17,848 bases of DNA from a virus: UHGV virus genome UHGV-0189394; one strand, given 5' to 3'. The position numbers were made by a program, and so were the translations under genes. Below, one piece after another: positions 1 to 16,523 of this stretch; position 1 is the stretch's first letter, and each line of letters opens with the position of its first letter. The notes beneath the pieces are model-generated. The model saw only the letters and a program-made list of their open reading frames with translations, did not search any database and had not been told where the DNA came from.

Positions 1-1421
1 AACGTCTTCTGCCCTATATTCCGGTTAATGCGGGGATCCTGATTGTGCCGTGCAGTCGTGGCGGCTCTGCGTTTACCGACGAAGCGCGTCAGATCGGTAC
101 CTACTCAAAAGAGAATGGTGCAACGGCAGAGTCTTCGCGCTGGGGTGTGGGCAATCCACTGTACATGGATTTAATCGACCGCACCAAAGCGGCTCTGGAC
201 AAAAACCCGAAAAACGTCCTGCTGGCCGTGTACTGGATGCAGGGCGAAGGCGACTGTATGAGCACGGGGTATGAGCAACACCCGACAAAATTTGTGGAGA
301 TGGTGAAACAGTTCCGTGCCGATCTTGCGGCCTATGCCGGTCAGTGTCTGGGGGAGGATGCGGCACGCGTACCGTGGGTGTGCGGCGATACCACCTTCTG
401 GTGGAAAACCGTTTACCCGACGCAGTACGCAACGGTTTACGGCACTTACCGTAATAACAGTGAGCTGAATATTCATTTTGTGCCGTTGATGAAAGACGAG
501 AACGGGGCAAATGTACCGACCAACAACCCGACGGAAGATCCGGATGTGCCGGAAGCAAATTATTACGGTGCTGCATCACGCACAGCTGAAAACTGGACGA
601 ACCCGACACGCGCCATGCATTTCAGTTCCTGGGCCCGTCGCGGCATCCTGCCGGACCGTATTGCGTCTGCCATCCTTGTGCACACAGGCCGCAATGCGCC
701 GTTCCTGGCTGGCGGTGATATCTCTGTGGACTTCCCCGAGCCTGAAGTGACGGAAGGCGAACTGACCACGCTGTACAGCGGCGCAGTGAGCGAAGGTGAT
801 TATCAGGCGCAGGGCTGGAATAAAGAACAGGGGAATGCTGAAGTTGTTCTCGACCCTGACAGCCAGTCATGGCATGCCCTGAAACTCACACAGGACAGTT
901 CACCAACAAAAGACCTGAAGATGAGTCACGCTGTGGCAAATGCGCCAGATTTGCTGAAGAACGGTGGTCGCATCACATTGCGTTTCAAAATCGGTGGCGA
1001 ATACGCCAACAAGAAAATCGCTGTTGCGATGTATCTGCAACTGAGTGAAAGCGCTCTTCAGGGGCTGACGTTCCAGGGACAGGCTGAGGGGACACATCCG
1101 TTCCTGGCTGCCTTCTTCCTTCAGACCGATGAGCAGAAAAAACTCAATCTTATGCACAGTAGCGGCAGCACGTCGAATAAGGTTGCAGGCTTTGGCGTAA
1201 TGAATAGCGAATGGCATACGCTGGAACTGGTGTATCCGGGACAGGGGAAAAACACGGTTATTCCTTATGTTGATTCTGTGAAAGGGCCGGAAACACAGCT
1301 GACATGGGCTAAATTCACCGGTCAGGAGAACACGCTGATCCTGACGGATGCATCCAGCAATGATACCTATGAAGTGCGTATTGACACGTTGACGGTGGAA
1401 GTTAACAAAGCAGCGGCGTAA
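1..1421 (+). CDS. SASA/SGNH-type carbohydrate esterase-like protein (sialate O-acetylesterase / NanS-like), 5'-partial
   Basis: Frame is open from nt 3 to the window edge (the track ORF at 45 starts on GTG with no upstream in-frame stop); stop TAA 1419-1421. Translation has a VYWMQGEGD block and a later MHFS block resembling conserved SASA esterase motifs, followed by a ~250-aa C-terminal domain. The catalytic Ser block would lie upstream of the window. Confidence 0.5.
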   Translation, partial: RLLPYIPVNAGILIVPCSRGGSAFTDEARQIGTYSKENGATAESSRWGVGNPLYMDLIDRTKAALDKNPKNVLLAVYWMQGEGDCMSTGYEQHPTKFVEMVKQFRADLAAYAGQCLGEDAARVPWVCGDTTFWWKTVYPTQYATVYGTYRNNSELNIHFVPLMKDENGANVPTNNPTEDPDVPEANYYGAASRTAENWTNPTRAMHFSSWARRGILPDRIASAILVHTGRNAPFLAGGDISVDFPEPEVTEGELTTLYSGAVSEGDYQAQGWNKEQGNAEVVLDPDSQSWHALKLTQDSSPTKDLKMSHAVANAPDLLKNGGRITLRFKIGGEYANKKIAVAMYLQLSESALQGLTFQGQAEGTHPFLAAFFLQTDEQKKLNLMHSSGSTSNKVAGFGVMNSEWHTLELVYPGQGKNTVIPYVDSVKGPETQLTWAKFTGQENTLILTDASSNDTYEVRIDTLTVEVNKAAA

Positions 1422-1427
1422 CGCCAT

Positions 1428-1456
1428 AAAAAAACCCTCCGCCATGCGGAGGGGAA
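1428..1456. terminator. A7 tract + perfect 8-bp GC-rich hairpin (ccctccgc-cat-gcggaggg); intrinsic-terminator-like, best oriented for the - strand
   Basis: Seen directly: aaaaaaa (1428-1434) then stem 1435-1442 / 1446-1453 with a 3-nt loop. On the - strand the hairpin is followed by U7; on the + strand it sits 14 nt after the esterase stop but lacks a U tract. Confidence 0.5.
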
Positions 1457-1537
1457 GAAGTTAACCATCAAACGAATATCTATGGAATTTGCATTCTGGC
1501 AATTTTCACCAATACACACAATGCAAAGGAGCGATGT

Positions 1538-1705
1538 ATGAATTTATTTCAACAGGTGATGTTGTATTTCAGTACTGCGGTATGCGTCCTCTGGTTGTTA
1601 TCCGGTGGCTACAAAGCCGTTAAAAACTTCTGGAACAAAAAACCAGACGAGGCCGCCGCCAGAAAGTCAGCATCAGGTTCAGGTGAAAGCAACTCGTTAA
1701 ACTGA
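1538..1705 (+). CDS. small hypothetical membrane protein (55 aa)
   Basis: ATG 1538 with AGGAG at 1526-1530 (7-nt spacing), stop TGA 1703-1705. Product MNLFQQVMLYFSTAVCVLWLLSGGYKAVKNFWNKKPDEAAARKSASGSGESNSLN has one N-terminal hydrophobic helix and a charged tail. Absent from the supplied track, presumably below its length cutoff. Confidence 0.4.
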   Translation: MNLFQQVMLYFSTAVCVLWLLSGGYKAVKNFWNKKPDEAAARKSASGSGESNSLN

Positions 1706-1783
1706 CGGTGATACCAGGACAAACCAGAATGACCGGCATCTCATCAGGCCGGTCACAGTAACAAGACGAAAAACGGTGACCTC

Positions 1784-2254
1784 ATGCTGAAACTGAATTC
1801 ATTCCGCGATGCGTTAACAGCACATTGCCGGTGGTGTAAAGCCAGTCCGGAAAAATTCACGGTATTCATTGAATCCGGCGGCATTGAAACCACCGGAGAA
1901 TCCCCCTCATTCCTGTACCGCTACAATCTGGTGTTGTTCGTCATGGACTTCACCGAAAGCATCGACAACATCATGCTGCCGGTCATGGCGTGGCTGTACA
2001 GGAATCAGCCGGATCTTCTTCTCAATCCGGAGAAAAACAAAAGCATCAAATTTTCGACGGCCATCAACGATGATGACAGCGCTGACATTCTTCTGGAAAT
2101 CCCGGTATGGGAGCGCGTGATTGTACGCCGCAACGATGACGGCACGGTGAGCGCGGAGCATATCGGTGAGCCACCGGTAAGCCGGGCACTGGAAGCGTGG
2201 CGCGTGGTGTTTGAAGACATGACCTGGAAAACCGCAGAAGAGGCCGGTGCATGA
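1784..2254 (+). CDS. R: tail completion protein, P2 gpR-like
   Basis: 156-aa ORF directly upstream of the S-like and V genes; size and sequence character (e.g. MLPVMAWLYRNQPDLLLNPE) match my recollection of the P2 gpR family. Stop overlaps the next start (ATGA). Confidence 0.7.
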   Translation: MLKLNSFRDALTAHCRWCKASPEKFTVFIESGGIETTGESPSFLYRYNLVLFVMDFTESIDNIMLPVMAWLYRNQPDLLLNPEKNKSIKFSTAINDDDSADILLEIPVWERVIVRRNDDGTVSAEHIGEPPVSRALEAWRVVFEDMTWKTAEEAGA

Positions 2255-2886
2255 GAGACGTTCACGAACTGGATGCCATCTTTCAGGACATTCTTTCAGG
2301 CCTGTCAGCTGCCGGAATTCAGCGCACGGCAATGAGCGTGGGTAAGGCCATCCGGCAGGTACAGACAAAACGCATCAGAAGCCAGGTATCCCCGGACGGT
2401 CAGCCCTGGGAGAAACGAAAACGCCGGATACTGCGCATACAAAAAGGCGTGAAGTTCATCTGGAAAGACGGACAGGTAAGAAACCTGAAAAACTGGAGCA
2501 CATCCCGGGGACGGTTCGGGCGGAAAATTACCGGCTACGATACCGACGCCGGGGGTATCCGGACGTTTTACAAGGCAGATATCGAAGACTATCTGGAAAT
2601 TAACACGCAGCGCGTCGCAGCAAGAGCATCACGTCGCTCACCCATGTTCGAAAAACTGAGAACACCGCGCTTTCTGAAAATCACCCCCGACCCGAGCGGC
2701 GTCAGTGTCGGTTTTCAGGGGCGGGCCGCGCGCATTGCCAGAGTGCACCAGTTCGGTGAGGTGAGCCTTGTCTCGCCCGGAAACGCCACGAAATACCCCG
2801 TGCGCGAACTGCTGGGCCTGAACGCTAAAGACAAACAGCAAATCACGGAAACTGTGATTGCCGGACTGGGGAAAGCTGCGAAATGA
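2251..2886 (+). CDS. S: virion morphogenesis / tail completion protein, P2 gpS-like (extended, 211 aa)
   Basis: Contains QVSPDGQPWEKRK, VHQFGE and VRELLGLNAKD blocks resembling gpS-family motifs; about 60 aa longer than P2 gpS as I recall it. Translationally coupled to R and V. Confidence 0.7.
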   Translation: MRDVHELDAIFQDILSGLSAAGIQRTAMSVGKAIRQVQTKRIRSQVSPDGQPWEKRKRRILRIQKGVKFIWKDGQVRNLKNWSTSRGRFGRKITGYDTDAGGIRTFYKADIEDYLEINTQRVAARASRRSPMFEKLRTPRFLKITPDPSGVSVGFQGRAARIARVHQFGEVSLVSPGNATKYPVRELLGLNAKDKQQITETVIAGLGKAAK

Positions 2887-3464
2887 ACATTGAGCTTATG
2901 CGATTGCTGGAAAACATTGTGCGGATTGGTGTGGTCACGGAAATCAACACCGACACCTGGGAGGTTCGGGTGCAGAGTGGCGGACTGACCACCAACTGGA
3001 TCAGATGGAACAGCGGACGGGCCGGAAAATTCAGAATCTGGATCCCGCCATCACCGGGTGAGCAGGTGCTTCTCCTTTGCCCCGGTGGCAATCCGGAAAC
3101 CGCCGTCAGCGCGGGCAGTCTGTACAGTAATGACAATCCACCACCGGGCGCACTGGAAAACGAAATGGTCATCACCGCACCGGACGGTGCGGAATTTCGC
3201 TATAACGCACAGGAAGGCGACCTGACGGCAAAAGGTATCAAAACCGCAACCATTACGGCCAGAACCAGCATCACGCTGGACACGCCAAGGGTGGAATGCA
3301 CGCAGCACCTGAAGGCAAAAACATTCGAGCTGACCGAAGGCGGGAAGATGACCGGCAACATCACGCACACCGGCGGAAGCCTGACCTCCAACGGTATCAC
3401 GGTGCACAGCCACGTACACGGCGGAGTCAGAAGCGGCGGAGACACAAGCGGAGGTCCACAGTGA
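2883..3464 (+). CDS. V: baseplate assembly protein V (central spike)
   Basis: 193-aa product with GEQVLLLCPGGNPETAV, TLDTPRVECT and THTGGSLTSNGITVHSHVH blocks closely resembling P2 gpV; position directly before W. Confidence 0.9.
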   Translation: MNIELMRLLENIVRIGVVTEINTDTWEVRVQSGGLTTNWIRWNSGRAGKFRIWIPPSPGEQVLLLCPGGNPETAVSAGSLYSNDNPPPGALENEMVITAPDGAEFRYNAQEGDLTAKGIKTATITARTSITLDTPRVECTQHLKAKTFELTEGGKMTGNITHTGGSLTSNGITVHSHVHGGVRSGGDTSGGPQ

Positions 3465-3829
3465 GCATTGACTACACCGGCATGAATCCGCACGGCACGG
3501 GAACCATTTCAGGGCACGAACACCTGAAGAACGCCATCAGGGACATCATCATGACACCTGTCGGAACACGCGTCATGAGACGGGACTATGGCAGCCTGGT
3601 TCCCGGACTCATCGACAGCCCGATGAATGATGTAACCCGCCTTCAGTGCATGAGTGCAGCCGTAATAGCAATCAGCCGCTGGGAGCCGCGCGTGGCCGTG
3701 AGCGCCGTTGATGTGGCGTGGGATAAGCAGGGGCGGGCCATGCTGTCCCTGAACTGCCTGATTGTAAACACCATGGAAAAACTGGAGTTTTCTGTAGAGA
3801 TGGGAGGAAAGGCAGATGCCGGCCATTGA
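3461..3829 (+). CDS. W: baseplate wedge protein W (gp25-like)
   Basis: Frame is open from GTG 3461, which overlaps the V stop (GTGA); an alternative ATG lies at 3482. Product has the TPVGTRVMRRDYGSL block characteristic of gpW/gp25-like proteins. Confidence 0.8.
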   Translation: MSIDYTGMNPHGTGTISGHEHLKNAIRDIIMTPVGTRVMRRDYGSLVPGLIDSPMNDVTRLQCMSAAVIAISRWEPRVAVSAVDVAWDKQGRAMLSLNCLIVNTMEKLEFSVEMGGKADAGH

Positions 3830-4712
3830 TTTATCTGAACTGCCAAAACCGAACGTTATCGAAACGCTGGATTACGAGGTGATACTGGCAGAAACAAAGG
3901 CATTTATCGTCAGCCTTTACCCGGCAGAGATACAGGAAGCCGTCACTGCCGCAATGATGCTGGAATCGGAACCCCTGAACATCATTGCCCAGAGCATGGC
4001 TTTCCGTGAGCTTATTATCCGTCAGAGAATTAACGACGCTGCGGGTGCCATTCTGCTGAGCCATGCGGTATCCACAGACCTGGATCATGTTGCCGCGAAC
4101 CTGAACACCGCTCGCCTGGTCATCACACCGGCAACAGAGACCAGTGATGCCGTTATGGAGAGCGACACCGCCCTGCGTCTTCGGGCGCAGTCTGCCTTTG
4201 ACGGGCTAAGTGTCGCCGGTCCAACAGGCGCATATGAATATTTTGCCCGAAGCGTCAGTGGCAGCATTGCCGACGTGAGGGCAACAAGCCCATCCCCAGC
4301 CCAGGTCACCGTGGCGGTATTATCCACAGAAGGCGACGGTACCGCTTCCGAAGACCTGATCGAAAAGGTCAGAACCGCACTGAGTGCGGAGGACGTCAGA
4401 CCAGTGGGAGACAGGCTTACCGTAAAGAGCGCTGAAATCATCAGCTATCAGATCGACGCCAGACTCTACTTTTATCCGGGCCCGGAATCCGAGCCCATTC
4501 TGAATGCAGCCAAAAGCAACCTGGAAGCGTGGATCAGAGAGCAGAGAAAAATTGGTCGCGATGTTGCGCTTTCCGCCATCATGGCCGTCCTGCATGTGCA
4601 GGGCGTTCAGCGGGTGGAGCTGGTGAAGCCACAACAGAACATTACCGTGAGCGATACGCAGTCGGCATATTGCACTTCATTCACCGTCAGCACCGGGGGA
4701 ACCAATGAATAA
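3816..4712 (+). CDS. J: baseplate assembly protein J
   Basis: 298-aa ORF, size and position match P2 gpJ (~302 aa); overlaps W by 14 nt and I by 8 nt. Confidence 0.85.
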   Translation: MPAIDLSELPKPNVIETLDYEVILAETKAFIVSLYPAEIQEAVTAAMMLESEPLNIIAQSMAFRELIIRQRINDAAGAILLSHAVSTDLDHVAANLNTARLVITPATETSDAVMESDTALRLRAQSAFDGLSVAGPTGAYEYFARSVSGSIADVRATSPSPAQVTVAVLSTEGDGTASEDLIEKVRTALSAEDVRPVGDRLTVKSAEIISYQIDARLYFYPGPESEPILNAAKSNLEAWIREQRKIGRDVALSAIMAVLHVQGVQRVELVKPQQNITVSDTQSAYCTSFTVSTGGTNE

Positions 4713-5238
4713 AGACACTCTGCTTCCCCCTTCCGCCACAGAATTCATACGCAACGCAGAGCGTGGCAGTGAGCGGTTGATGGCGCTGCCCGTCGGTATT
4801 CGTCATCTCTGGGATCCTGACACATGTCCCGTGCAGTTGCTGCCTTATCTGGCATGGGCGCTGTCGGTTGACCGATGGGATCAAAACTGGCCGGAGGAAA
4901 CCAAACGGCAGGTCATTCGCGATTCATGGGATATTCACCGGCATAAAGGCACCATCAAAGCCATTCGCCGGGTTGTTGAGCCATTTGGTTATGTGATCAG
5001 GGTAACCGAATGGTGGGAAACCAACGAAACACCGGGAACATTCCGGCTGGATATCGGCGTACTGGATATCGGGATCACCGAAGAAATGTACAGGGAAGTT
5101 GAACGCCTGGTAGCCGACGCACGTCCGGTCAGTCGCCATCTGATCGGTCTGAACATCATTCAGGACGTACCGGGTTACATGTACACAGGCGGCATCGCCT
5201 ACGACGGCGACATTATTACTGTTTATCCTTCGGAGTAG
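4705..5238 (+). CDS. I: tail/baseplate protein I
   Basis: 177-aa ORF between J and the tail-fibre gene, matching P2 gpI size (~176 aa) and position. Confidence 0.85.
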
Positions 5239-5242
5239 CGCT

Positions 5243-8164
5243 ATGACCGTAAAATTCAAAACCGTAATCACTAAGGACGGTGCAGCAAAAATCGCCGCAG
5301 CAACCGGCACACCGGGAACAAAAATCAACATCACGCACATGGCCGTTGGCGATGGCGACGGCAACTTACCCACGCCTTCATCATCCCAGAAAGCGCTCAT
5401 TCGTGAGGTATGGCGAGGCACACCAAACAAAGTAAGCCCCAACCCCAAAAACCCTGCTGAACTCATTGCTGAACTGGTGATCCCTCCTGAAGCGGGAGGA
5501 TTCTGGATGCGTGAAATGGGCTTGTTCGATGAGGCGGGAACGCTGATTGCCGTATCCAACATGGCAGAAACCTACAAACCGCTACTGTCTGAAGGTTCCG
5601 GCAGGGCGATGACATGCCGCATGGTCCTCATCATCAGCGATGTGAGTGCCGTAAACATCTCCGTTGACAACACCACCATCATGGCAACACAGGATTACGT
5701 CGATGACAAAATCGCTGAACATGAACAGTCGCGCCGACATCCCGACGCCACACTGACCCAGAAAGGCTTCACCCAACTGGACAGCTCGGTAAACAGTAGC
5801 AGTGAGGCGAAAGCTGCAACACCAAAAGCAGTAAAAACACTGAACGATACAAAGGCCCCGCTGAACAGCCCTAAGCTGACCGGAACACCGACTGCCCCCA
5901 CGGCAGCAAAAGGGGTCAACAACACCCAGATAGCGACAACCGCTTACGTGATGGCAGCAATCGCTAATTTAGTGGACTCATCACCGGACGCCCTGAATAC
6001 GCTGAACGAGCTGGCGCAGGCGCTGGGAGATGACCCAAACTTTTCAGCCACCATGACCAACGCACTGGCGGGAAAACAGCCCCTTGATGCAACGCTGACG
6101 GCGATTGCCGCGCTGACCACGGCAGCCGATAAACTGCCTTACTTCACCGGAAACGACAAGGCGGCACTGGCAACACTGACGGAAGTTGGCCGGGACATCC
6201 TCGGAAAGGCAGCCGTCAGTGACGTCATCGCGTATCTGGGGCTCACGAACACCATCACCCAGGCATCAGGCGCACTTCAGAAAGCGCAGAACGGAAAAGA
6301 CATCCCGGACACCGAAGCGTTCCTGGAGAACGTCGGCGTCACCAGTCAGACGTTCATGAAACATAATGGAGAACTGCCTGAAGAGGCTGACCTGAATACC
6401 TATGGCCCGGTTGCTGCCACTCTGGGCACGTGGGGGAAAGCAACGTCAACCAATGCAACGATCGCTAAAAATTTCCCGGAAGACGGTGCGGTGGGCTTTC
6501 TCGAAGTCTTTACTGGAGGAGCTTTTAACGGAACGCAGCGATACACCTGCCGTAACGGTGGAATTTATATCCGGACCCTGACCGCCAGATGGAACGGAAA
6601 AGATGGCCCATGGAGCGCATGGCGTAACGTTCAGATGACCAGCAGAACCCTGAGTCAGGATATTGATCTTGACACCCTGGGGGGAACCGAACATCTGGGG
6701 GTATGGCGTAACGCAGGCGCAGCCAATGCTTCATTCACCAGAAACTACCCGGAAGAAGGTAGTTATGCCCAGGGCGTTCTTGAGGTTATGGAAGGTGGCA
6801 GCTATTCACGCACCCAGCGGTACACTACAGCCAAAGGGAATATGTACATCCGCAGCCTGGCTGCAACATGGGATGCATCTGCCCCGAAGTGGGGAGAATG
6901 GAATAGCGTCGGACATCAACCTGACGGCGCATGGCACGATGGCGACCTGAACACCATGAAAACGCCGGGTATTTACAGCACGACCAACAAGGCCAAAAAC
7001 GGCCCTATGACGGTTACGGACGGGGATAACCTGACAGGGGTCCTTGAGGTCATAAAACGACTGAGTGGTACCGCCTTTATACAGCGCTATACCACCACAG
7101 GAACGGCGACATTAACACGCGGACGTTCTTTTGAAAGAACCTTCAGCGGTGAAGCCTGGACAGAATGGCGGGAAATCTATAACTCGTTCAGCCTGCCGCA
7201 GAATCTGGGCATCGGTGGCGCAGTGGCAAAACTATCCAGTCTGGACTGGCAGACCTACGACTTTGTGCCGGGCAGTCTGATAACCGTGCGGCTTGATAAC
7301 ATGACCAACATTCCCGACGGTATGGACTGGGGCGTCATTGATGGCAACCTGATAAACATCGCGGTTGGTCCGAGTGATGATTCCGGTACGGGGCGCTCAA
7401 TGCATGTATGGCGCAGCACTGTGAGTAAAGCGAATTACCGCTTTTTTATGGTGCGTATTTCAGGAAATCCGGGAAGCCGCACGATCACAACAAGACGAGT
7501 ACCAATCATTGACGAAGCCCAGACATGGGGCGCGAAACAGACATTCAGTGCTGGCCTTTCAGGTGAATTATCCGGCAACGCCTCCACTGCAACAAAATTA
7601 AAAACCGGGCGTAAGATTAACGGCGTCACGTTTGATGGCACCGCCAATATAGAGGCATTCCCTCCGGGGGTTCCCTTACCATGGCCATCAGACACCCCGC
7701 CTTCAGGCTATGCCATTATGCAGGGGCAAACCTTCGACAAGGCAAAATACCCGAAACTTGCCATCGCCTACCCGTCAGGAAAACTGCCTGATATGCGGGG
7801 ATGGACAATCAAAGGGAAACCAGCCAGCGGTCGGGCGGTATTATCACAGGAGCAGGACGGTATTAAATCGCATACCCATACGGCCAGCGTATCAAATACC
7901 GATCTGGGGTCGAAAACGACCAGTTCATCAGGCTCAGGATCAGGCACCGCATCAGTAATACAGGGGACAGCATCCCCTGAAGGTAGCGGAGACTGGACGG
8001 CGTACGGTCCAGGAAGTGGGTCAACAATTACTGTAACTATGCCCAGTCACACCCACACCGTGGCACTGGGCTCACACGGGCACGGCGTGACCGTTAACGC
8101 CACAGGCAACACAGAAAACACCGTGAAAAATATTGCGTTTAACTACATCGTGAGGCTTGCATAA
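5243..8164 (+). CDS. H: tail fibre protein (mosaic: P2 gpH-like N-terminus, repeat-containing shaft, lambda Stf / Mu S-like receptor-binding tip)
   Basis: 973-aa ORF with GGAG 8 nt upstream. N-terminal ~150 aa is P2 H-like; C-terminus has GWTIKGK...HTHTA...[16 protein letters not shown]...[12 protein letters not shown], resembling the conserved tip of lambda Stf-type side tail fibres. Confidence 0.9.
6388..7183 (+). repeat. three tandem protein-level repeats (~85-90 aa each) inside the tail-fibre gene
   Basis: Units begin near nt 6388 (DLNTYGP...[29 protein letters not shown]...W..W), 6659 (DIDLDTLGG...[29 protein letters not shown]...W..W) and 6939 ([11 protein letters not shown]...GVLEVIKRL...QRYTTTG...W..W). 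Nucleotide sequences have diverged; unit boundaries are approximate. Confidence 0.6.
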
Positions 8165-8910
8165 TGACCTTTACAATGAAAGACGAAGCCAGAACGCTAC
8201 GGGTATTTCATATTCACCCGGAAACCAGCGAACTGACCGGCGAAAGCGACGTATATATTCCACCGCATACCGGGCTGCCCGCTGGTTGCACAACTACCGA
8301 ACCGCCACATATCCCGGAAGGGTTCGCGGCACTTTTTGATGAGGTTCGCCAGCGCTGGGAACTCGCCGAAGATCACCGGGGGAAAGTGGTGTGGGAGACA
8401 ACATCCGGGAATGAAATCACAATAACTGAAATCGGACCGCTGCCTGAAAACACAACAACCGTGGCCCCGCCAACAGCCGCAGGAAAGTTTATTGATGGCG
8501 AATGGAAAGAAGATCGCAGTCTGGCAATCAGTATAAAAAATAACGAGATAAACGAATGGCGTAACGCCATGGAATCTGCAAATTACGTTTTCACGTTCAA
8601 TGGCCGCAACTGGGATTACGGAAAAGAAACCCAGTCCCGACTGGAACCATCAGTGGCAGCCGCAAAGTCCGGGTTATTACCGGAGGGATTTTTCTGGACG
8701 GATGCCGATAACAACGATATCCCGGTTACCGCAGATGAATTGATCGCACTGAGCAATGCTGCATCTGCTGCAATGTTTACCAAAGGAATGGAAATACATA
8801 TCCGGCAACGGGAAATGAAAAAAGCCATAGAGGAATTACAGGACCCCGGAGAAATCATGGCATACCCGGTGGGATGGAAAACAGACACCGCAGAAGGTGA
8901 CGACGAGTGA
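8164..8910 (+). CDS. tfa: tail fibre assembly protein / chaperone (lambda Tfa-like N-terminal domain, non-canonical C-terminal domain)
   Basis: Start overlaps the H stop (TAATGA). N-terminal ~100 aa (GESDVYIPPHTGLPAG, EDHRGKVVWETTSGNEITITEIGPLPEN) closely resembles lambda Tfa; the C-terminal ~140 aa does not resemble the usual Tfa C-terminus as I recall it. Confidence 0.75.
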   Translation: MTFTMKDEARTLRVFHIHPETSELTGESDVYIPPHTGLPAGCTTTEPPHIPEGFAALFDEVRQRWELAEDHRGKVVWETTSGNEITITEIGPLPENTTTVAPPTAAGKFIDGEWKEDRSLAISIKNNEINEWRNAMESANYVFTFNGRNWDYGKETQSRLEPSVAAAKSGLLPEGFFWTDADNNDIPVTADELIALSNAASAAMFTKGMEIHIRQREMKKAIEELQDPGEIMAYPVGWKTDTAEGDDE

Positions 8911-8942: not shown

Positions 8943-9416
8943 TTATCTTACCAGTGTCAGTGCAGAGCTGACGCCGGACTTGATATTATTTGTCAGATCC
9001 CCCAGAGATGAAGACTGAAGGCGCTCACGCAAATCTTCATTCACACGCTCAAAGGTCACCGTAAACTCAATCTTCCGGGCCTTGCCATAGCGATCAAGCT
9101 CTGAGCGCGTGGTATTCAGCGCGGTGATAACGTACATACCGTAAATCTGACCAACACCATCAATCAGCGGCCAGGGACGCCCCGCATACGCCTGAGTTGT
9201 CAGCGCCGTGAGCGAGACTTCACCGCCTGTTATTTCCGGGTAGAGAAGACCGGAAAGCGTGATGGTATCGTCCCCCGCACCGATATACTGCCAGCTTGCC
9301 GAGCGGTTGATCCGCTCGTTCTTCACATGACGCCAGTTACGGGACTGCTGTATCTGCTGGTGTGGCAGCGTGCTTAACTGAAAAACAAACATGCCGTAAA
9401 TCATCATCATAACCAT
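8943..9416 (-). CDS. U: tail protein U
   Basis: Product (..MMMIYGMFVFQLSTLPHQQ...WPLIDGVGQIYGMYVI...KIEFTVTFERV) resembles P2 gpU. The track ORF starts at GTG 9419; I place the start at ATG 9416, but ATGs at 9410-9404 are equally possible (AGGAG lies just upstream). Confidence 0.8.
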   Translation of the reverse strand: MVMMMIYGMFVFQLSTLPHQQIQQSRNWRHVKNERINRSASWQYIGAGDDTITLSGLLYPEITGGEVSLTALTTQAYAGRPWPLIDGVGQIYGMYVITALNTTRSELDRYGKARKIEFTVTFERVNEDLRERLQSSSLGDLTNNIKSGVSSALTLVR

Positions 9417-9421
9417 CACTC

Positions 9422-12307
9422 CTAATCACGATCGCGGAAGCTGTTCATACCGCCGACTTGTCTGCGAATTTCTTCCCGTACCGCCTCCCCCACCATTCTG
9501 GCAAGGTCGCGCGGATTCTGCGTAACCACGTTATGAAGGTGAACGTGAATTTCCCCATCAAACACAGGCGACGGCGCAGGAGCAGATGCACGCGATGCAG
9601 CACCCGATGATGGAGAAACCGGTGCCCACTGCTTAACCTCCACAGGACGGGAAGTATCCGGGGAAACAACCGGAGACACGGGTGAAAGCGCTGGCACAGG
9701 CGGAAGTACGGGGGCAACAGTCGGTTCATTCCACTGCCCACGAACGGCCAGCGCGCGGGGGAGATTTTTAAACACGATATCGCCGGGGCCGATACGCTTA
9801 CGGGCTTCCTGAAGCATACCCGACGTATTGCCTTCGATACCCTTGAGCCTGCGAAGAACGCCACTGGTACCGTCATTTATTCCCGGAGGATTACCACCTT
9901 TGGGATCCACGCCCCCCGTATTACCGCCAGCCACCGGTTTGCCCTTCCCTGCGTTATCACTGGTGGCAGATTCAGCCATACTGGGGGACCATGCCTTCTG
10001 AACCATTTTTTTCTGAACAGGGTCCCACTCCCACATAACCGGAGCCTTTGCAACTGCCTCAGCACGATTTTTCGCCCGCTCAACTTCAGAGGGGAGCACG
10101 CCGAGTTTTTCCAGCACCCATGCCAGGCCGTCCATCAGAGCCTGAAGAGGAGTAAGCGCAAGCGATATCGCCCCGCTGAGCACGCGACCAAAAGTTTCCC
10201 CGGCCGATGTACACCGTTCAAGAGATTCATTACTGGCCTGAACCGGCGTGAGCAACCGGGTAAACCAGTCGAACACCGTGGACACCGCACCCGATACCAG
10301 ATCAAACAGCGGCGCAAACTGAGCAATACTTTCACGAACAGGCGCAAGGCCAGCCCACAGCGCCCGGAATGTGCCGAGCATGAAGGCCTTAACCTGTTCC
10401 CAGTGACGCCATATGAGCAGCGCCCCACCGGCAAGGGCAGCAATCACGAGACCAACAGGACTGAGAAGACCGGCAAGCGCCCCGCCCAGCACCGAAAACG
10501 CACCGGATACCATCCCCCACAGTGCCGGAAGTCCGGACAGGCGAAGGACAAGACCACTGACGCCGGTTGCAACGGAGGAAAGTCCGCCACCAAGAAGCGC
10601 AGAGCCAAGCTGAAGTTTTGCAAAAACCCCCGTCAGCAATCCACCACCGACAGACAGCGCGCCTATGGCCGTTGTGGCCGCAAGCACGCCCCCCACGGTA
10701 AGGGTCAGTGTGCGTACAAGCTGTGGGTTTTCCTGAATCCACGACCTGAAACGTTCGCCCACAGAAGCAACAGCCTGTACAAGCTCGCGGATATCATCAG
10801 TAACCAGCGACACAACATCACTGCGTATACCGGAGAAGACGCCAGACAGACGATCGGCATCACCGCCGAGGTTATCCCGCAGGACATCCCCCATTCGCCG
10901 GGCGGTTCCCTGAACCTGTCCCATACGGTCTGATACCGTTGCCAGCGAGCGGAGAAAATCCGGGATCTGGTCAACGGCAAGATCTTCAATGGGTGTGCCG
11001 AACAGCGCTATCGCCGCATTAGCCCGTTCTGCCGGATCCTGAATCTTCAGCAGCCCGGCAGCCGTTCGCTGCATTGCCTCGCGTGCAGCTGCGCCTCCGC
11101 TGGCAATCGCTGACGACATTCTTTCAGCGTTAAGGCCAATCAGCTCATAGGCCTCAACGCTTGCTTTGGACATATCCGAGCCGCGAATACTGAATTCCTT
11201 GACGGCATCGCCGGTTTTATCCAGGGCGAATTTTCCCTGCTGTGCCATGCTGACAAGCAGCGTCATGGTTTCAGAGCCGGAAAGCCCCATATTGCGGAAG
11301 TGCGTGGAATACTCATGCAGAATTTCAGGAAGTTCAGCGCGCATTTCGGCAGACATTTTCTGCATCCCTGCCGCCATCAGGTCGACCGCCTCCCCGGCAT
11401 TTGCGGCAAGCCCGTTTTTCAGCATGATTCCGGCAGCCTGAACCTGTTCAGCCACACTACCGCCGGTGACCTGAGCAAGATCCAGCGCCTGACGTGTCAC
11501 CCGTTCGAGCTCTTCAGTCCCCACCGTACCCAGTGCGCCAAGCGTGCTTTGCGTCGCAGCTGCCGCCTCTGAAATCATTGCGATATCCGTTGCGACACCT
11601 GACGCCCGGATATTCTGAATCATCCGGCTGTAGCGCTGCCCGTCCTCCGCACTGCCGCCACTCTGTGCCGCAATAAGCGCGCCCTGCCGTTGCTCTTCAA
11701 CAACAGGCGCAACCGCATGTCCGGCGGCGTACAGACCAGCACTGCCCGCCGCCATGGCAACCGCTCCGCGCTGGCTGAGTTTACCGGCGATATCCTGAAC
11801 ACGATCGTAACGTTGCTGTGCCTGCGTGACGCGCGCAAGCTGAGCCTGCTGGCGTTCAAGCTGATCGTTGTATTCCTGCGTTCGCCTGATTGCTTCCTCC
11901 ACAGCGCGGTTACTTCCGTCAGCCCGTATGCCGTGAGCTTCCAGTTCGCGACCGGCCTCCCGTAATCGGGACTGGTGAAGGGAGTACACAGTATTAAGGC
12001 GCTCAACCTTTGCGGTCAGCGCCCTGAGAGTTTCCTGCTGCTTTTCCGTCAGTGCTGTGCCGGTGCGCTGTGCTTCCTGAAGGCGCTGAAGTCGCGCACG
12101 CGCATCATTCAGACTGTTTTCAGTCGAAGCGACCTGCTGACGGGCACGGGAAAACGCATCACTGCTTCGCTGGAGTGACTTAAGCGCGTTCTGTGTGGAC
12201 GAAAGGGATTCAGAAAGCGCGCCGGTCATTTCCCGGGCGCGCCTGACAGGTTGGGTGAGACGGTCGACCGCAGTGAGGGCTACACGTATCTGGAGATTAT
12301 TACTCAT
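9422..12307 (-). CDS. T: tail tape measure protein T
   Basis: Long ORF between E/E' and U with an Ala/Gly-rich hydrophobic central region typical of tape measure proteins. Start placed at ATG 12307-12305 (MSNNLQ...), which overlaps the E' stop; the track's GTG at 12361 would lie inside E'. Confidence 0.85.
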   Translation of the reverse strand: MSNNLQIRVALTAVDRLTQPVRRAREMTGALSESLSSTQNALKSLQRSSDAFSRARQQVASTENSLNDARARLQRLQEAQRTGTALTEKQQETLRALTAKVERLNTVYSLHQSRLREAGRELEAHGIRADGSNRAVEEAIRRTQEYNDQLERQQAQLARVTQAQQRYDRVQDIAGKLSQRGAVAMAAGSAGLYAAGHAVAPVVEEQRQGALIAAQSGGSAEDGQRYSRMIQNIRASGVATDIAMISEAAAATQSTLGALGTVGTEELERVTRQALDLAQVTGGSVAEQVQAAGIMLKNGLAANAGEAVDLMAAGMQKMSAEMRAELPEILHEYSTHFRNMGLSGSETMTLLVSMAQQGKFALDKTGDAVKEFSIRGSDMSKASVEAYELIGLNAERMSSAIASGGAAAREAMQRTAAGLLKIQDPAERANAAIALFGTPIEDLAVDQIPDFLRSLATVSDRMGQVQGTARRMGDVLRDNLGGDADRLSGVFSGIRSDVVSLVTDDIRELVQAVASVGERFRSWIQENPQLVRTLTLTVGGVLAATTAIGALSVGGGLLTGVFAKLQLGSALLGGGLSSVATGVSGLVLRLSGLPALWGMVSGAFSVLGGALAGLLSPVGLVIAALAGGALLIWRHWEQVKAFMLGTFRALWAGLAPVRESIAQFAPLFDLVSGAVSTVFDWFTRLLTPVQASNESLERCTSAGETFGRVLSGAISLALTPLQALMDGLAWVLEKLGVLPSEVERAKNRAEAVAKAPVMWEWDPVQKKMVQKAWSPSMAESATSDNAGKGKPVAGGNTGGVDPKGGNPPGINDGTSGVLRRLKGIEGNTSGMLQEARKRIGPGDIVFKNLPRALAVRGQWNEPTVAPVLPPVPALSPVSPVVSPDTSRPVEVKQWAPVSPSSGAASRASAPAPSPVFDGEIHVHLHNVVTQNPRDLARMVGEAVREEIRRQVGGMNSFRDRD

Positions 12308-12847
12308 CGTTATGATTCCCGGTTCTGGCAGCCGCCCGCTCTCGCCAGGCAACAACCTCACCAGGACTCATACCGAATATCTCTGCGGGCGACCAGTTAA
12401 AGACAACAGCGATATCAGCGACAAGCTCTTCGATATCGTCAAACAGGAGACGAATTACATCACACCTGTATTCGTCTTTTTCTTGCCGGGCAAGGCCTTC
12501 GGCGAGAAAAAATACGTTGCCGCCGTGGAAAGCGCCCCGAAATCCTCCGTGCGCATGGTCGACAGTTCCGCTTCAGTAAGGCGGGGCTCTGTAACACGAG
12601 CGAGATAAACGCACATCGCGTTAAAGTTCAGGCTGTACAGGTGAGCCAGAGACAGACCACGCAGCGAACCACTCTGACGGGCACGCTCGCCAATCTTCAC
12701 ATGTGTAATAATCTGTTCGCCACGGATGACCGGGTTTGTTAATTCAATGAGCTCACCGTTATAGGCAACCTCATTACCATCAGCAGCATCGAAGTCGTCG
12801 ACGTTATCAGCACCGACAACCGGCATTTCGTTTTGTTTTTTTGACAT
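12300..12847 (-). CDS. tail assembly chaperone E+E' (predicted -1 programmed frameshift product)
   Basis: Slippery heptamer T TTT TTC on the - strand (12512-12506) at codons 112-114 of E. Hand translation of the -1 frame from 12506 gives a 68-codon extension (LAEGLARQEKDEYRCDVIRLLFDDIEELVADIAVVFNWSPAEIFGMSPGEVVAWRERAAARTGNHNDE) ending TAA 12302-12300, overlapping the T start. Confidence 0.6.
12455..12847 (-). CDS. E: tail assembly chaperone E
   Basis: 130-aa ORF with AGGAG 9 nt upstream of ATG 12847; sits between FII and T as in P2 and contains a slippery run near its 3' end. Confidence 0.8.
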   Translation of the reverse strand: MSKKQNEMPVVGADNVDDFDAADGNEVAYNGELIELTNPVIRGEQIITHVKIGERARQSGSLRGLSLAHLYSLNFNAMCVYLARVTEPRLTEAELSTMRTEDFGALSTAATYFFSPKALPGKKKTNTGVM

Positions 12848-12892
12848 TGTGAAATTCTCCTGGCGGCCACACGACCGCCGTCAGTCAGTTAA

Positions 12893-13405
12893 TCAGCCAA
12901 GCCCCAGCATGGAGCGGGTGCGGTCAGGCAACACATCCTTGCCATCAACGCGCCAGATGAAGTTCAGCACGTCGATTTCAATAACATCGCTGTTATCAAC
13001 GCTGAGCTTGTACCAGGTGCATTTCATCGCGTAGGTATGTTCGGTATCCTCACCCTGTTTGGCTTCGCCCTTGTCGATTTCGACAATGCGCCCACGGGCT
13101 TCAATATCGACGTACTCAATACCCTCTTCGGAATAGTATTCACCCGAGAAGCGCACACGTACCGCATCAATGCCTGCGGCATATTTGGCAAAGATGTGAC
13201 GGTCCACGCCGCCAACCGCAAAGGAGAGATCCAGCGCACCGTCATCAAGCCCGAGATCCACCGCCGCAGAGCCTGGCATACCCGCACCGCGATACGCTTC
13301 AGTCTTGCGGGTCAGCTTGGGCGGAGTGAAGGAGGTCACCTTACCCAGCTTGTTGTCACCGTCCACAAAGACGGTAAACACACGAAGTTTTTTTGGCACG
13401 GCCAT
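12893..13405 (-). CDS. FII: tail tube protein FII
   Basis: 170-aa ORF (P2 FII ~172 aa); its start overlaps the FI stop (TGATG). Confidence 0.9.
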   Translation of the reverse strand: MAVPKKLRVFTVFVDGDNKLGKVTSFTPPKLTRKTEAYRGAGMPGSAAVDLGLDDGALDLSFAVGGVDRHIFAKYAAGIDAVRVRFSGEYYSEEGIEYVDIEARGRIVEIDKGEAKQGEDTEHTYAMKCTWYKLSVDNSDVIEIDVLNFIWRVDGKDVLPDRTRSMLGLG

Positions 13406-14610
13406 CAGTTACCCCCTCCCAGAGATGCAAAAGCAGAACTGAAGAACTCGTCAGTAAACGTCTGATAGAGTTCCATGCACTCCATAGGCGGAACAGGGGT
13501 GTATTTGTAGCGAATACGCACAATACCCTGACGAAGGCTGGTTGTGTCGTTGTCGATGATATCGAACCAGCATTCCGCCCCGATAAGTTTTCCGGCCGTG
13601 ACCAGCGCATCCAGTTTTGCCTTGATAGCGCTTACCGCATCCTTCGCGTTGGCTGGCGTCAACGGTGAATCCACCACCTGAAGCTGTGCCTCTGCGATAC
13701 CGTCAGCCAGTTGTTGCGCCGTACGGGTGTACACCTCAAAGATATACTCCGCCGTTTCCGGCGTACGGTTCCCCCAGAAACGGAAGGAGCCGTCACCCTG
13801 GTGAATAATCGTCGTCACCTCACTGCTGTTCAGCGTGTTGGCATCGCTGTTTTCATCCTGAAGCGACCAGGAAACCGACGCAGAGATCCCGAGAACATTC
13901 TTCACAGGGATGTTTGAAAGAGAGCGATGCCAGCCCTGTTCGTGGTCGATTCGGGCACGAAGACCGCACGCATACGCCGCAGCCGGGAAAGTTTCGCTTT
14001 TACCGGATGCAGGGTTGAACGCCGTGAAATCAGGCCACAGAAGCATGATTTCACGCCCGGAAATCTTTTTGCGGAATGCAATGGCATCGGACGGTTTTGT
14101 ACATGCCGGGCAGCCGGAATACGCAAAAGCGCGCATTTTGCCCGCAATCGTCACCAGTGCCGCCGTAACGGCCTCGGACTCAAGACCGGGTGCCGCCAGG
14201 ATACGCGGACGACAGCCAATCCCTTCCATCTGTTCAGCAACCAGAAGAGCCTGCATCCCCGTGTAACTGCCATCAGCCTCCACGGTACCAATAACAAGCT
14301 GGTCCTGATTCTTCCCTCCCTCGGTGTCTTCCTCCTCTTTGGCTTCAGCGACACGCACGACGATAACGCGCGTGCTGACCTGATCGGAGATAGCCTTAAG
14401 AGATTTGTAGAGCGTCCCCTTTGTGCCAGCCTTACCCAGAACATTATTGACTCGTGTTAACAGCACCGGCGTGTCAAGCGGGAACTGCTCTTCATCAGCA
14501 TCATCTGCAACAGCAATAATCCCAATGACACTGGAATCAACGTCATTAATTGCCGTCACCAGATCGGTGTTTTCCCTGACGCGCACACCGTGAAATCGCG
14601 TTTCAGCCAT
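13405..14610 (-). CDS. FI: contractile tail sheath protein FI
   Basis: ~400-aa ORF resembling P2 gpFI. Start placed at ATG 14610 (MAETRFHGVRV..., GGTGA 5 nt upstream) rather than the track's ATG 14622, which has no RBS. Confidence 0.9.
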   Translation of the reverse strand: MAETRFHGVRVRENTDLVTAINDVDSSVIGIIAVADDADEEQFPLDTPVLLTRVNNVLGKAGTKGTLYKSLKAISDQVSTRVIVVRVAEAKEEEDTEGGKNQDQLVIGTVEADGSYTGMQALLVAEQMEGIGCRPRILAAPGLESEAVTAALVTIAGKMRAFAYSGCPACTKPSDAIAFRKKISGREIMLLWPDFTAFNPASGKSETFPAAAYACGLRARIDHEQGWHRSLSNIPVKNVLGISASVSWSLQDENSDANTLNSSEVTTIIHQGDGSFRFWGNRTPETAEYIFEVYTRTAQQLADGIAEAQLQVVDSPLTPANAKDAVSAIKAKLDALVTAGKLIGAECWFDIIDNDTTSLRQGIVRIRYKYTPVPPMECMELYQTFTDEFFSSAFASLGGGN

Positions 14611-14685
14611 ACGATTCACCATCAGTTATGTTTAAGCTCGCCTGAATAATCCACTACTGGCGCGCAGCCTTCACGTGATGCGGGT

Positions 14686-16382: not shown

Positions 16383-16523
16383 ATGTCGCAAAAATCGCTT
16401 ATGGCCATCACGTTCTGCGTGACGGCAATCCTCATCATCTGGATGTTACATGGTTCGCTGTGTGAAATACGGATGAACATATGGGGAGCGGAGTTTGCGG
16501 CGTTCCTACAGTGTAAACAGTAA
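16383..16523 (+). CDS. Hok/Gef-family type I toxin-like small membrane protein (46 aa)
   Basis: ATG 16383 with AGGAG 9 nt upstream, stop TAA 16521-16523. Product MSQKSLMAITFCVTAILIIWMLHGSLCEIRMNIWGAEFAAFLQCKQ has one TM helix followed by SLCEIR and a later AAF block, matching the Hok family signature as I recall it (R1 Hok ...SLCEIR...VAAFMAYE). Confidence 0.55.
   Translation: MSQKSLMAITFCVTAILIIWMLHGSLCEIRMNIWGAEFAAFLQCKQ

What the first reader, a model, noticed from the sequence alone, without database searches (positions are those of the whole stretch)
1..1421. SASA/NanS-like esterase gene sits immediately upstream of P2-type tail completion genes
In P2 the genes upstream of R are the lysis cassette, not an esterase. 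Here a large carbohydrate-esterase-like ORF (WMQGEGD block plus ~250-aa C-terminal domain) is followed by a tiny membrane-protein ORF and then R-S-V. That makes it a candidate cargo/moron gene or a replacement of the lysis-accessory region. Phage-borne sialate O-acetylesterases (NanS-p type) are known from lambdoid prophages; a myovirus tail-module context would be unusual. The gene is truncated by the window, so its N-terminal domain is unknown.
Basis: partly seen in the sequence, partly recalled or inferred. Interest (0 to 1): 0.45.

Follow-up and report, generated by a model that had tools for sequence, protein, structure and literature searches.

The report
NanS-p esterase cassette in P2-like prophage
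The truncated gene at the start of the window is a phage-type sialic-acid O-acetylesterase (NanS-p family) carried as an optional late-gene cassette by a P2-like E. coli prophage, which turns out to be a common arrangement, not a rare one.

Summary
Window 3-1421 encodes the last 472 residues of a 647-aa esterase, followed by a 55-aa DUF1378 membrane protein and P2-type R, S and V. The source contig (identical over 12.2 kb) supplies the missing start. The full protein has an N-terminal DUF1737 domain, a catalytic domain matching E. coli NanS (E 9e-111) and a C-terminal domain matching the phi24B NanS-p lectin-like domain (E 2e-30).

A complete lysis cassette (holin, lysozyme, Rz/Rz1-like spanins) sits immediately upstream, so nothing was replaced. 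The esterase is an optional insert: phage P88 has the same backbone without it, and a 96%-identical O104:H4 prophage carries a 2-kb cassette there.

The context is not unusual. 405 of 5426 complete E. coli genomes carry this kind of esterase, with the matches annotated next to lysC.

The N-terminal domain follows the phage type: 53-100% identity among P2-like loci, 24-31% to lambdoid or phage-plasmid-like loci. The catalytic and C-terminal domains are exchanged with lambdoid phages, up to 99% identity. A 2026 preprint shows DUF1737 anchoring NanS-p to the phi24B capsid. I therefore infer late expression and action outside the cell after lysis, probably capsid-tethered.

Verdict: a new member of a known kind, of modest interest.

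The parts
3..692 (+). 3' two-thirds of the SGNH/SASA catalytic domain of the esterase (residues 176-405 of 647). It contains Block II RGGS (nt 57), Block III QGE (nt 240) and Block V HFS (nt 618). Block I GQSN with the catalytic Ser lies 252 nt upstream of the window.
   Evidence: (E 9.4e-111 to NanS 3PT5). Block definitions come from PMC10792757.
693..764 (+). Linker between the catalytic and C-terminal domains.
   Evidence: This stretch is not covered by either PDB match.
765..1421 (+). C-terminal DUF6645 / lectin-like jelly-roll domain (residues 430-647) plus the stop codon. It is hypervariable between alleles and has lower GC.
   Evidence: E 2.1e-30 to NanS-p C-domain 6YP6; DUF6645, E 1.1e-15; 15-64% identity between alleles; GC 0.455-0.50.
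1435..1453 (.). GC-rich hairpin CCCTCCGC-CAT-GCGGAGGG just after the stop codon. The T-run lies on the minus-strand side only, so it is not a canonical terminator for the esterase transcript. It is specific to this allele.
1538..1705 (+). DUF1378 small membrane protein (55 aa) with a strong AAGGAG ribosome-binding site. It is the usual downstream partner of nanS-p in lambdoid prophages. It is variably present in P2-like relatives.
   Evidence: phrog_494; lambdoid pairing; absent in the P88-type sublineage.
1784..2254 (+). gpR tail completion protein: the backbone gene to the right of the cassette.
   Evidence: E 3.8e-40.
2251..2886 (+). gpS-like virion morphogenesis protein (context).

Best explanation
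The window opens inside a nanS-p-type gene. The protein is a 647-aa, signal-peptide-less, three-domain sialate O-acetylesterase: a DUF1737 N-terminal domain, an SGNH/SASA catalytic domain and a lectin-like C-terminal domain. With the small DUF1378 gene it forms an optional cassette between the lysis genes (holin, lysozyme, LysB/LysC spanins) and the tail-completion gene R. The host element is a P88-like (Xuanwuvirus-like) P2-family prophage integrated next to flk in E. coli.

Shown: the domain identities, the conserved catalytic motifs, the intact lysis cassette upstream, the empty site in P88, and a start codon 6 nt after the lysC stop with no promoter-like site.

Inferred: the gene is transcribed only with the phage late operon. 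The protein accumulates in the cytoplasm and reaches its substrate (9-O-acetylated sialic acids on mucins, as for characterised NanS-p enzymes) only when the cell lyses.

Further inferred: the DUF1737 domain is specific to the phage type while the enzyme part is swapped between phage families. DUF1737 is the capsid-binding domain of NanS-p in phi24B. I therefore propose that DUF1737 tethers the enzyme to the P2-type capsid, so the virion carries a mucin-directed esterase.
For: Identity:
- The catalytic domain matches NanS 3PT5 at E 9.4e-111.
- The C-terminal domain matches NanS-p 6YP6 at E 2.1e-30.
- The N-terminal domain matches DUF1737 at E 6.7e-8, 32.7 bits against a cutoff of 24.
- Blocks I, II, III and V are conserved.

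Context:
- Eight independent assemblies give the same order: portal, terminase, O, N, M, L, X, holin, lysozyme, spanin, esterase, DUF1378, R, S, V.
- Two complete genomes agree, with lysC annotated; one of them has no DUF1378 annotated.
- PHROGs names the holin and the Rz-like spanin.

Late co-transcription:
- The ATG lies 6 nt after the lysC stop, with an AGGAG site.
- No plus-strand promoter-like or terminator-like site is found.

Optional cassette:
- P88 goes from LysB to R in 137 bp.
- P88 and the O104:H4 prophage are 95.6-96.7% identical on both sides of a 2.0-kb versus 93-bp difference.

Frequency: 405 of 5426 complete genomes.

Anchor and payload pattern:
- N-domain identity to the window allele is 53-100% in 7 P2-like loci, 29-31% in 4 lambdoid loci and 24-25% in 2 phage-plasmid-like alleles.
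- Catalytic-domain identity is 60-90% regardless of context.
- The P2-like allele L002 is 98-100% identical in DNA to lambdoid L001, starting exactly at codon ~79.
- Other P2-type alleles have 90-98% lambdoid catalytic domains.
- The prediction that EPGxP[WF]YLMQA-type N-domains sit in P2-like prophages held in 3 of 3 blind look-ups.

Function by homology:
- The phi24B preprint identifies gp84 (NanS-p) as a capsid decoration protein bound through DUF1737.
- NanS-p alleles of EDL933 and O104:H4 are reported to be active Neu5,9Ac2 esterases (PMC8065619).
- The AF2 model of the N-domain is beta-alpha-beta-beta with pLDDT 75-81, matching the fold described for phi24B.
Against: - No experiment on any P2-like allele is accessible to me. 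Virion association is by analogy with a single preprint on a T=9 podovirus with an unrelated major capsid protein family.
- In phi24B the domain binds only the flat central hexons of T=9 facets. I know of no equivalent flat, facet-centre hexon on a P2-type capsid (T=7, from my own knowledge).
- N-domain and MCP identities co-vary only loosely. MCPs that are 98% identical go with N-domains that are 73% identical (r = 0.62, non-independent pairs).
- The N-domain could track the backbone simply because crossovers need homology, and only the catalytic domain offers it.
- Foldseek found no significant structural match to any capsid protein.
- The natural substrate of this allele is unknown, and its C-terminal domain is only about 36% identical to the solved one.
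Confidence: 0.55

Rival explanations
1. Soluble public-good enzyme. The esterase is made late and simply released by lysis. It de-O-acetylates mucin sialic acids so that surviving sibling lysogens can grow on them (the classical NanS-p model). It has no role in the virion, and DUF1737 serves some other purpose or none.
For: This is the published model for NanS-p in EDL933 and O104:H4 (PMC8065619; PMC10462455). The gene follows the lysis genes directly. P88 does without it.
Against: It does not explain why each phage type keeps its own N-terminal domain while the enzyme part is exchanged. It also does not fit the phi24B virion data. It is compatible with the best explanation, because phi24B gp84 is processed and partly released.
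Confidence: 0.3
2. Adsorption aid. The enzyme removes O-acetyl groups from a bacterial surface glycan (O-antigen, or an O-acetylated K capsule such as K1 polysialic acid). This would expose the receptor for the tail fibre encoded nearby.
For: The idea is raised as an open possibility for NanS-p (PMC8065619). The C-terminal lectin-like domain is hypervariable, as receptor-binding modules are. The gene sits at the edge of the tail module.
Against: The protein has no tail-fibre or baseplate-attachment domain. The catalytic domain is about 60% identical to the sialate-specific NanS. The same payload is shared with siphoviral, podoviral and phage-plasmid-like contexts that have different tails. R and S are tail-completion proteins, not fibre proteins.
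Confidence: 0.1
3. The domain pattern is a by-product of recombination. The N-domain stays with the backbone only because homologous crossovers can occur in the conserved catalytic domain and not upstream. On this view the N-domain has no phage-specific partner.
For: The junction between L002 and L001 lies exactly where DNA homology begins. The N-domains are too diverged to support crossovers. Co-variation with the MCP is loose.
Against: It does not explain why three phage types each maintain a distinct, internally conserved DUF1737 family. The EPGxP[WF]YLMQA loop is invariant across P2-like lineages whose MCPs are only 61% identical.
Confidence: 0.25
4. Artefact: the window is a junction of a lambdoid remnant with a P2-like tail remnant, or an assembly chimera.
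For: The esterase-DUF1378 pair is typical of lambdoid late regions.
Against: The same order, inside complete P2-like prophages, is seen in eight draft assemblies, several complete genomes and deposited phage records.
Confidence: 0.01

Closest known systems
NanS-p esterases of lambdoid and Stx prophages (933W L0105/Z1466; phi24B gp84 = vb_24B_21; C-domain PDB 6YP6)
   Same: The three-domain architecture (DUF1737, SASA, DUF6645) and length (~640 aa) are the same, and neither has a signal peptide. Both lie in the late transcription unit beside the lysis genes and are usually followed by DUF1378. The catalytic domain is up to 89% identical to a lambdoid allele.
   Different: The host phage is a P2-family myovirus, so late transcription would be Ogr-dependent (inferred from the ogr gene in the window), not Q-dependent. 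The gene lies after the lysis genes, not before them. The N-terminal DUF1737 domain is a separate subfamily with only 29-31% identity.
Chromosomal NanS (YjhS), PDB 3PT5
   Same: The catalytic domain is homologous at E 9e-111, with Blocks I, II, III and V conserved, including the SASA-type QGE motif and the Asp-less Block V.
   Different: From my own knowledge, NanS is a single-domain enzyme of the nan regulon that carries an export signal. The protein here has extra N- and C-terminal domains and no signal peptide, and it is phage-borne.
Escherichia phage P88 (Xuanwuvirus, Peduoviridae)
   Same: The genome architecture is the same, including the FI-FII-E-T-U block inverted relative to R-G, followed by D.
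   Different: P88 has no esterase and no DUF1378: LysB is followed by R after 137 bp. It is only ~65% identical in DNA to the window's tail genes. The window lineage has a lysozyme-type endolysin, whereas P88 has an M15 peptidase.
Capsid decoration proteins that display a glycan-binding module (T4 Hoc; phi24B gp84)
   Same: The proposed logic is the same: a small capsid-binding domain carrying an outward-facing glycan-directed module.
   Different: For the P2-like protein this is untested. Hoc has Ig-like domains and no enzyme activity (from my own knowledge).

Membership tests
NanS-p (phage-borne sialate O-acetylesterase) | SASA/SGNH catalytic domain homologous to NanS | tested here: met
   E 9.4e-111 to 3PT5 over residues 79-400. 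Pfam SASA above the gathering score.
NanS-p (phage-borne sialate O-acetylesterase) | Catalytic motifs: Block I GQSN (Ser), Block II RGGS, Block III QGE, Block V H in xHFS | tested here: met
   with motif definitions. Block I lies upstream of the window, in the identical contig L008.
NanS-p (phage-borne sialate O-acetylesterase) | N-terminal DUF1737 domain | tested here: met
   E 6.7e-8, 32.7 bits against a cutoff of 24. The domain is in the full-length gene (L008), outside the window.
NanS-p (phage-borne sialate O-acetylesterase) | C-terminal lectin-like jelly-roll domain (DUF6645 / 6YP6) | tested here: met
   E 2.1e-30. DUF6645, E 1.1e-15.
NanS-p (phage-borne sialate O-acetylesterase) | Lies in a prophage late region next to the lysis genes | tested here: met
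NanS-p (phage-borne sialate O-acetylesterase) | Lambdoid, Q-antiterminated context (as in all described examples) | tested here: not met
   P2-family backbone with ogr. This is a feature of the context, not of the protein.
NanS-p (phage-borne sialate O-acetylesterase) | Hydrolyses the 9-O-acetyl group of Neu5,9Ac2 or mucin sialic acids | not testable with these tools
   Inferred from about 60% identity to NanS. Reported for other alleles.
Moron / optional cargo cassette | Presence/absence polymorphism between otherwise near-identical phages | tested here: met
   P88 versus the O104:H4 prophage, 2.0 kb against 93 bp with 96% identical flanks. This was shown in the P88-type sublineage, not in the window's own sublineage, where all relatives found carry it.
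Moron / optional cargo cassette | Own promoter and terminator allowing expression from the repressed prophage | tested here: not met
   no plus-strand promoter-like site, the start codon is 6 nt after the lysC stop, and the hairpin lacks a plus-strand T-run. These are consensus scans only.
phi24B-gp84-type capsid decoration protein | DUF1737 domain with a helix plus three-strand sheet fold | tested here: met
   (beta-alpha-beta-beta, pLDDT 75-81).
phi24B-gp84-type capsid decoration protein | Aromatic 'tooth' residue in the loop before the last strand (Tyr42 in gp84) | tested here: inconclusive
   An invariant P[WF]Y lies at residues 44-46 of P2-type domains. Equivalence to Tyr42 is not established.
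phi24B-gp84-type capsid decoration protein | Present in purified virions, bound at hexon centres | not testable with these tools
   Foldseek against the PDB gave no significant hit.
phi24B-gp84-type capsid decoration protein | phi24B/GP4-type T=9 head module | tested here: not met
   the major capsid protein is Phage_cap_P2 (PF05125).
P2 lysis-accessory genes (lysA/lysB/lysC) | Homology to, or replacement of, the spanin or lysis-timing genes | tested here: not met
   the Rz-like spanin and LysC are present upstream, and the esterase is unrelated to them.
Tail-spike/fibre-borne SGNH deacetylase | N-terminal tail or baseplate attachment domain | tested here: not met
   only DUF1737, SASA and DUF6645 are found.

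The most novel reading that the evidence does not exclude
DUF1737 is a phage-type-specific capsid anchor, and the NanS-p enzyme plus lectin-like unit is a portable payload. Lambdoid, P2-like and phage-plasmid-like phages of E. coli exchange this payload by recombination at the domain boundary. On this reading, roughly 7% of sequenced E. coli strains carry a P2-family prophage whose capsid would display a mucin-directed esterase. That would be the first decoration protein described for a P2-type capsid.
Probability: 0.35. Interest if true: 0.55.

Novelty: new member of a known kind. Interest (0 to 1): 0.33.

Why it matters
NanS-p has been discussed almost only as a feature of Stx and lambdoid prophages. 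Here the same enzyme is shown to be a frequent, optional late gene of P88-like P2-family prophages, including those in the O104:H4 outbreak strain and in ST131 strain JJ1887. The enzyme part moves between unrelated phage families, while the N-terminal domain stays with each family. This gives a concrete, testable link to the recent claim that DUF1737 is a capsid-binding domain. It matters for how phages and their lysogens interact with gut mucus. For genome annotation, it argues for naming these 'DUF6645 domain-containing proteins' as NanS-p-type esterases.

Tried and rejected
- Megablast of the esterase region against 5426 complete E. coli genomes found only three partial hits at 80-85%. This briefly suggested a non-E. 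coli host, but the flk flank shows E. coli. The allele is simply rare and the locus hypervariable.
- Megablast of window 1-5200 against the phage collection found nothing. Only the distant mode found P88-like phages, at ~65%.
- A genome-contig scan with gpR found no relative.
- The search for homologous proteins with the 82-aa N-terminal piece returned only two fragments.
- The exhaustive representative search with fragment P0002 returned seven hits, none informative. I found no evidence for P2-type DUF1737 fused to other payloads or standing alone.
- Foldseek of the N-domain model against the PDB gave only generic dodecin-like beta-alpha-beta-beta matches (E > 0.1). It neither supports nor refutes a capsid-binding fold.
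- Rfam found nothing in the window.
- The hairpin after the stop codon is allele-specific and is oriented as a minus-strand terminator. I attach no function to it.
- The phi24B 'SSP' autoprocessing motifs are not present in this protein's linkers, on reading the sequence.
- The papers of Rangel 2016, Rangarajan 2011, Feuerbaum 2018 and Saile 2018 were not held. I therefore could not confirm whether one of the five O104:H4 NanS-p enzymes already tested is the P2-like-borne allele.
- The function of DUF1378 remains unknown, and no paper describes it.

Full report
**1. The observation**

Frame 3 of the plus strand is open from the left edge of the window to the TAA at 1419-1421. Pfam finds SASA (E 1.3e-9) and DUF6645 (E 1.1e-15) in these 472 residues. 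The 55-aa ORF at 1538-1705 is DUF1378 (E 2e-17). The next genes are gpR (E 4e-40), gpS and gpV. The remainder of the window is a P2-family tail module:
- W, J, I, H and G on the plus strand.
- U, T, E, FII and FI on the minus strand.
- D and ogr on the plus strand.
- A hok/gef gene, and then the host gene flk.

**2. The missing part of the gene and the neighbourhood**

An exact look-up of the gpR protein returned eight assemblies. One of them (L008; GCA_030003975.1, contig JAAQRJ010000002.1) is 100% identical to the window over 12,254 nt. In L008 the gene is intact and encodes 647 residues.

Against solved structures:
- Residues 79-400 match E. coli NanS/YjhS (3PT5) at E 9.4e-111.
- Residues 433-643 match the C-terminal domain of NanS-p from phage phi24B (6YP6) at E 2.1e-30.

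Residues 3-51 match DUF1737 (E 6.7e-8, above the Pfam cutoff). The SGNH/SASA motifs listed for 3PT5 in PMC10792757 are all present:
- GQSN lies 252 nt upstream of the window.
- RGGS is at window nt 57.
- QGE is at nt 240.
- HFS is at nt 618.

The N-terminus is hydrophilic, with no signal peptide (my reading). The protein is therefore a full NanS-p-type, three-domain esterase.

Upstream of it in L008, and in all relatives, lie the portal and terminase (reverse strand) and then O, N, M, L and X. Next come a holin (phrog_1350), a lysozyme, an Rz-like spanin (phrog_214) and, in RefSeq annotation, LysC. The esterase ATG is 6 nt after the lysC stop and follows an AGGAG site. No promoter-like or terminator-like site is found on the plus strand. 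The lysis cassette is therefore intact and in its expected place. The esterase has been added to it, not substituted for it.

**3. It is optional cargo, and it is common**

The closest deposited phages are P88-like Xuanwuvirus (Peduoviridae), at ~65% DNA identity. P88 has the same architecture, including the inverted FI-U block, but goes from LysB to R in 137 bp.

A P88-type prophage in E. coli O104:H4 2011C-3493 is 95.6-96.7% identical to P88 on both sides. It carries 2.0 kb containing the esterase where P88 has 93 bp. Two deposited phage records (vB_EcoM-705R2 and 'Entero_P88_NC_026014(23)') hold the same gene, cut by the record end and unnamed.

I searched 5426 complete E. coli genomes with a probe made of the five P2-type N-terminal domain sequences. 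It hit 405 genomes, always on the chromosome. The matches listed are annotated 'DUF6645 domain-containing protein', mostly overlapping lysC. The window's own allele is rare: no complete genome has it. The arrangement itself is not rare.

GC content falls from about 0.57 to 0.455-0.50 over the C-terminal domain and DUF1378.

**4. Domain mosaic**

I compared the window allele, domain by domain, with alleles whose context I had read.

| Context | N-domain identity | Catalytic-domain identity |
|---|---|---|
| Seven P2-like loci | 53-100% | 62-90% |
| Four lambdoid loci | 29-31% | 66-89% |
| Two alleles in a phage-plasmid-like element | 24-25% | 60-79% |

The C-terminal domain is the most variable, at 15-64% identity.

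Further points:
- The P2-like allele L002 is unrelated in DNA to the lambdoid allele L001 up to codon ~79. It is then 98-100% identical for 1.2 kb.
- Other P2-type alleles have lambdoid-like catalytic domains at 90-98% identity.
- Among 118 cluster representatives, the N-domains fall into discrete types.
- I predicted that the types sharing the loop EPGxP[WF]YLMQA would lie in P2-like prophages. Three of three look-ups confirmed this.
- Two other N-domain types looked up were lambdoid. A third lay in a phage-plasmid-like element.
- DUF1378 follows the backbone, not the payload: 100% identity between L008 and L002, and 54-55% to lambdoid copies. It is absent from the P88-type sublineage.

**5. 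How it probably works**

The shown facts are the identity of the domains, the conserved catalytic motifs, the position inside the late lysis/tail operon, the optional nature of the cassette, and the domain exchange.

From established knowledge of NanS and NanS-p, the enzyme removes 9-O-acetyl groups from sialic acids. This includes mucin sialic acids, which makes them usable by E. coli. With no signal peptide and late co-transcription, the protein should reach its substrate only at lysis.

A 2026 preprint reports that phi24B gp84, a NanS-p, is a capsid decoration protein. Its DUF1737 domain forms hexamers that plug hexon centres, and the protein is later processed. Each phage type here keeps its own DUF1737 family while exchanging the enzyme. 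That is what one expects of an anchor that must fit a phage-specific partner. An AF2 model of the P2-type domain has the helix plus three-strand topology described for gp84. I therefore favour a capsid-tethered, later possibly released, esterase.

The caveats are real:
- The P2-type MCP is unrelated to that of phi24B, and its capsid is T=7 (from my own knowledge).
- In phi24B, binding is limited to the flat central hexons of T=9 facets.
- Co-variation with the MCP is loose.
- The pattern could arise from the mechanics of homologous recombination alone.
- No structural match to a capsid protein was found.

I put the identity and cargo status above 0.9, late-only expression near 0.75, and capsid tethering near 0.4-0.5.

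**6. Comparison with what is known, and novelty**

The protein meets every sequence criterion of the NanS-p family. Only the lambdoid context differs.

The papers I could search describe NanS-p in Stx and 'non-Stx' prophages and report five active alleles in O104:H4. I found none that names a P2-family context, and none on DUF1378. The O104:H4 P2-like allele may already be among the enzymes tested, but I could not check this.

I classify the finding as a new member of a known kind. The 'replacement of the lysis region' and 'unusual context' ideas are not. The anchor-and-payload pattern is the one point that may deserve follow-up.

Noticed in passing
window 8943-14622 (minus strand): The U-T-E-FII-FI tail block is inverted relative to R-S-V-W-J-I-H-G and to D/ogr, unlike in P2, where (from my own knowledge) all these genes run the same way. 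The same inversion is seen in phage P88 and in all relatives fetched, so it marks this Xuanwuvirus-like group and is not a rearrangement peculiar to this window.
   Followed up: partly
window 16383-16523 (+): A Hok/Gef-family toxin ORF (Pfam E 3e-7) lies just after ogr at the right end of the prophage. It is also annotated in relatives integrated at other sites (serS, tRNA-Leu/pgsA). Rfam found no Sok-like RNA at the gathering threshold.
   Followed up: partly
window 16853-17848 (+): The host gene flk (flagella biosynthesis regulator) shows the host is E. coli and that the prophage sits beside flk. Other E. coli genomes carry a different element there, annotated as DNA methyltransferase, Com and Hok/Gef, between flk and yfcJ.
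   Followed up: partly
L002-L006 between the tail-fibre assembly gene and gpU (e.g. L002 15968-17572); L023 19105-19677: There is a second cargo site, between G and U. Relatives carry a methyltransferase and a hexapeptide-repeat acetyltransferase there; in the O104:H4 prophage the gene is annotated 'serine O-acetyltransferase'. The window has nothing there: G ends at 8910 and the U gene begins at 8943.
   Followed up: no
L019 10001-14029: A phage-plasmid-like element (DNA polymerase III alpha, CobT, ParA-like, integrase) carries two convergent NanS-p paralogues. They share an N-terminal domain type of their own but have diverged catalytic domains. A 90-kb E. coli plasmid also matched the window esterase at 85% (H2).
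   Followed up: partly
protein P0103: One 752-aa NanS-p variant with the P2-type N-domain also has a phage tail Collar domain (PF07484) in its precomputed Pfam list.
   Followed up: no
window 1435-1453: A perfect 8-bp GC-rich hairpin lies immediately after the esterase stop codon. Its T-run is on the minus-strand side, although no minus-strand gene runs into it. It is found only in the three loci that carry this exact allele.
   Followed up: partly
window 5243-8910: The tail fibre H (973 aa) and its DUF4376-type assembly protein G differ strongly from those of closely related prophages. H is about 48% identical over only 20% of its length to L002, but 82% identical to L010. This is the usual host-range mosaic.
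   Followed up: no
L010 12700-13001: In strain SCU-172 the DUF1378 gene is not annotated, and tblastn finds only a partial match (63% identity over 63% of its length). The small gene is probably decaying there. It is absent altogether in the P88-type sublineage.
   Followed up: partly
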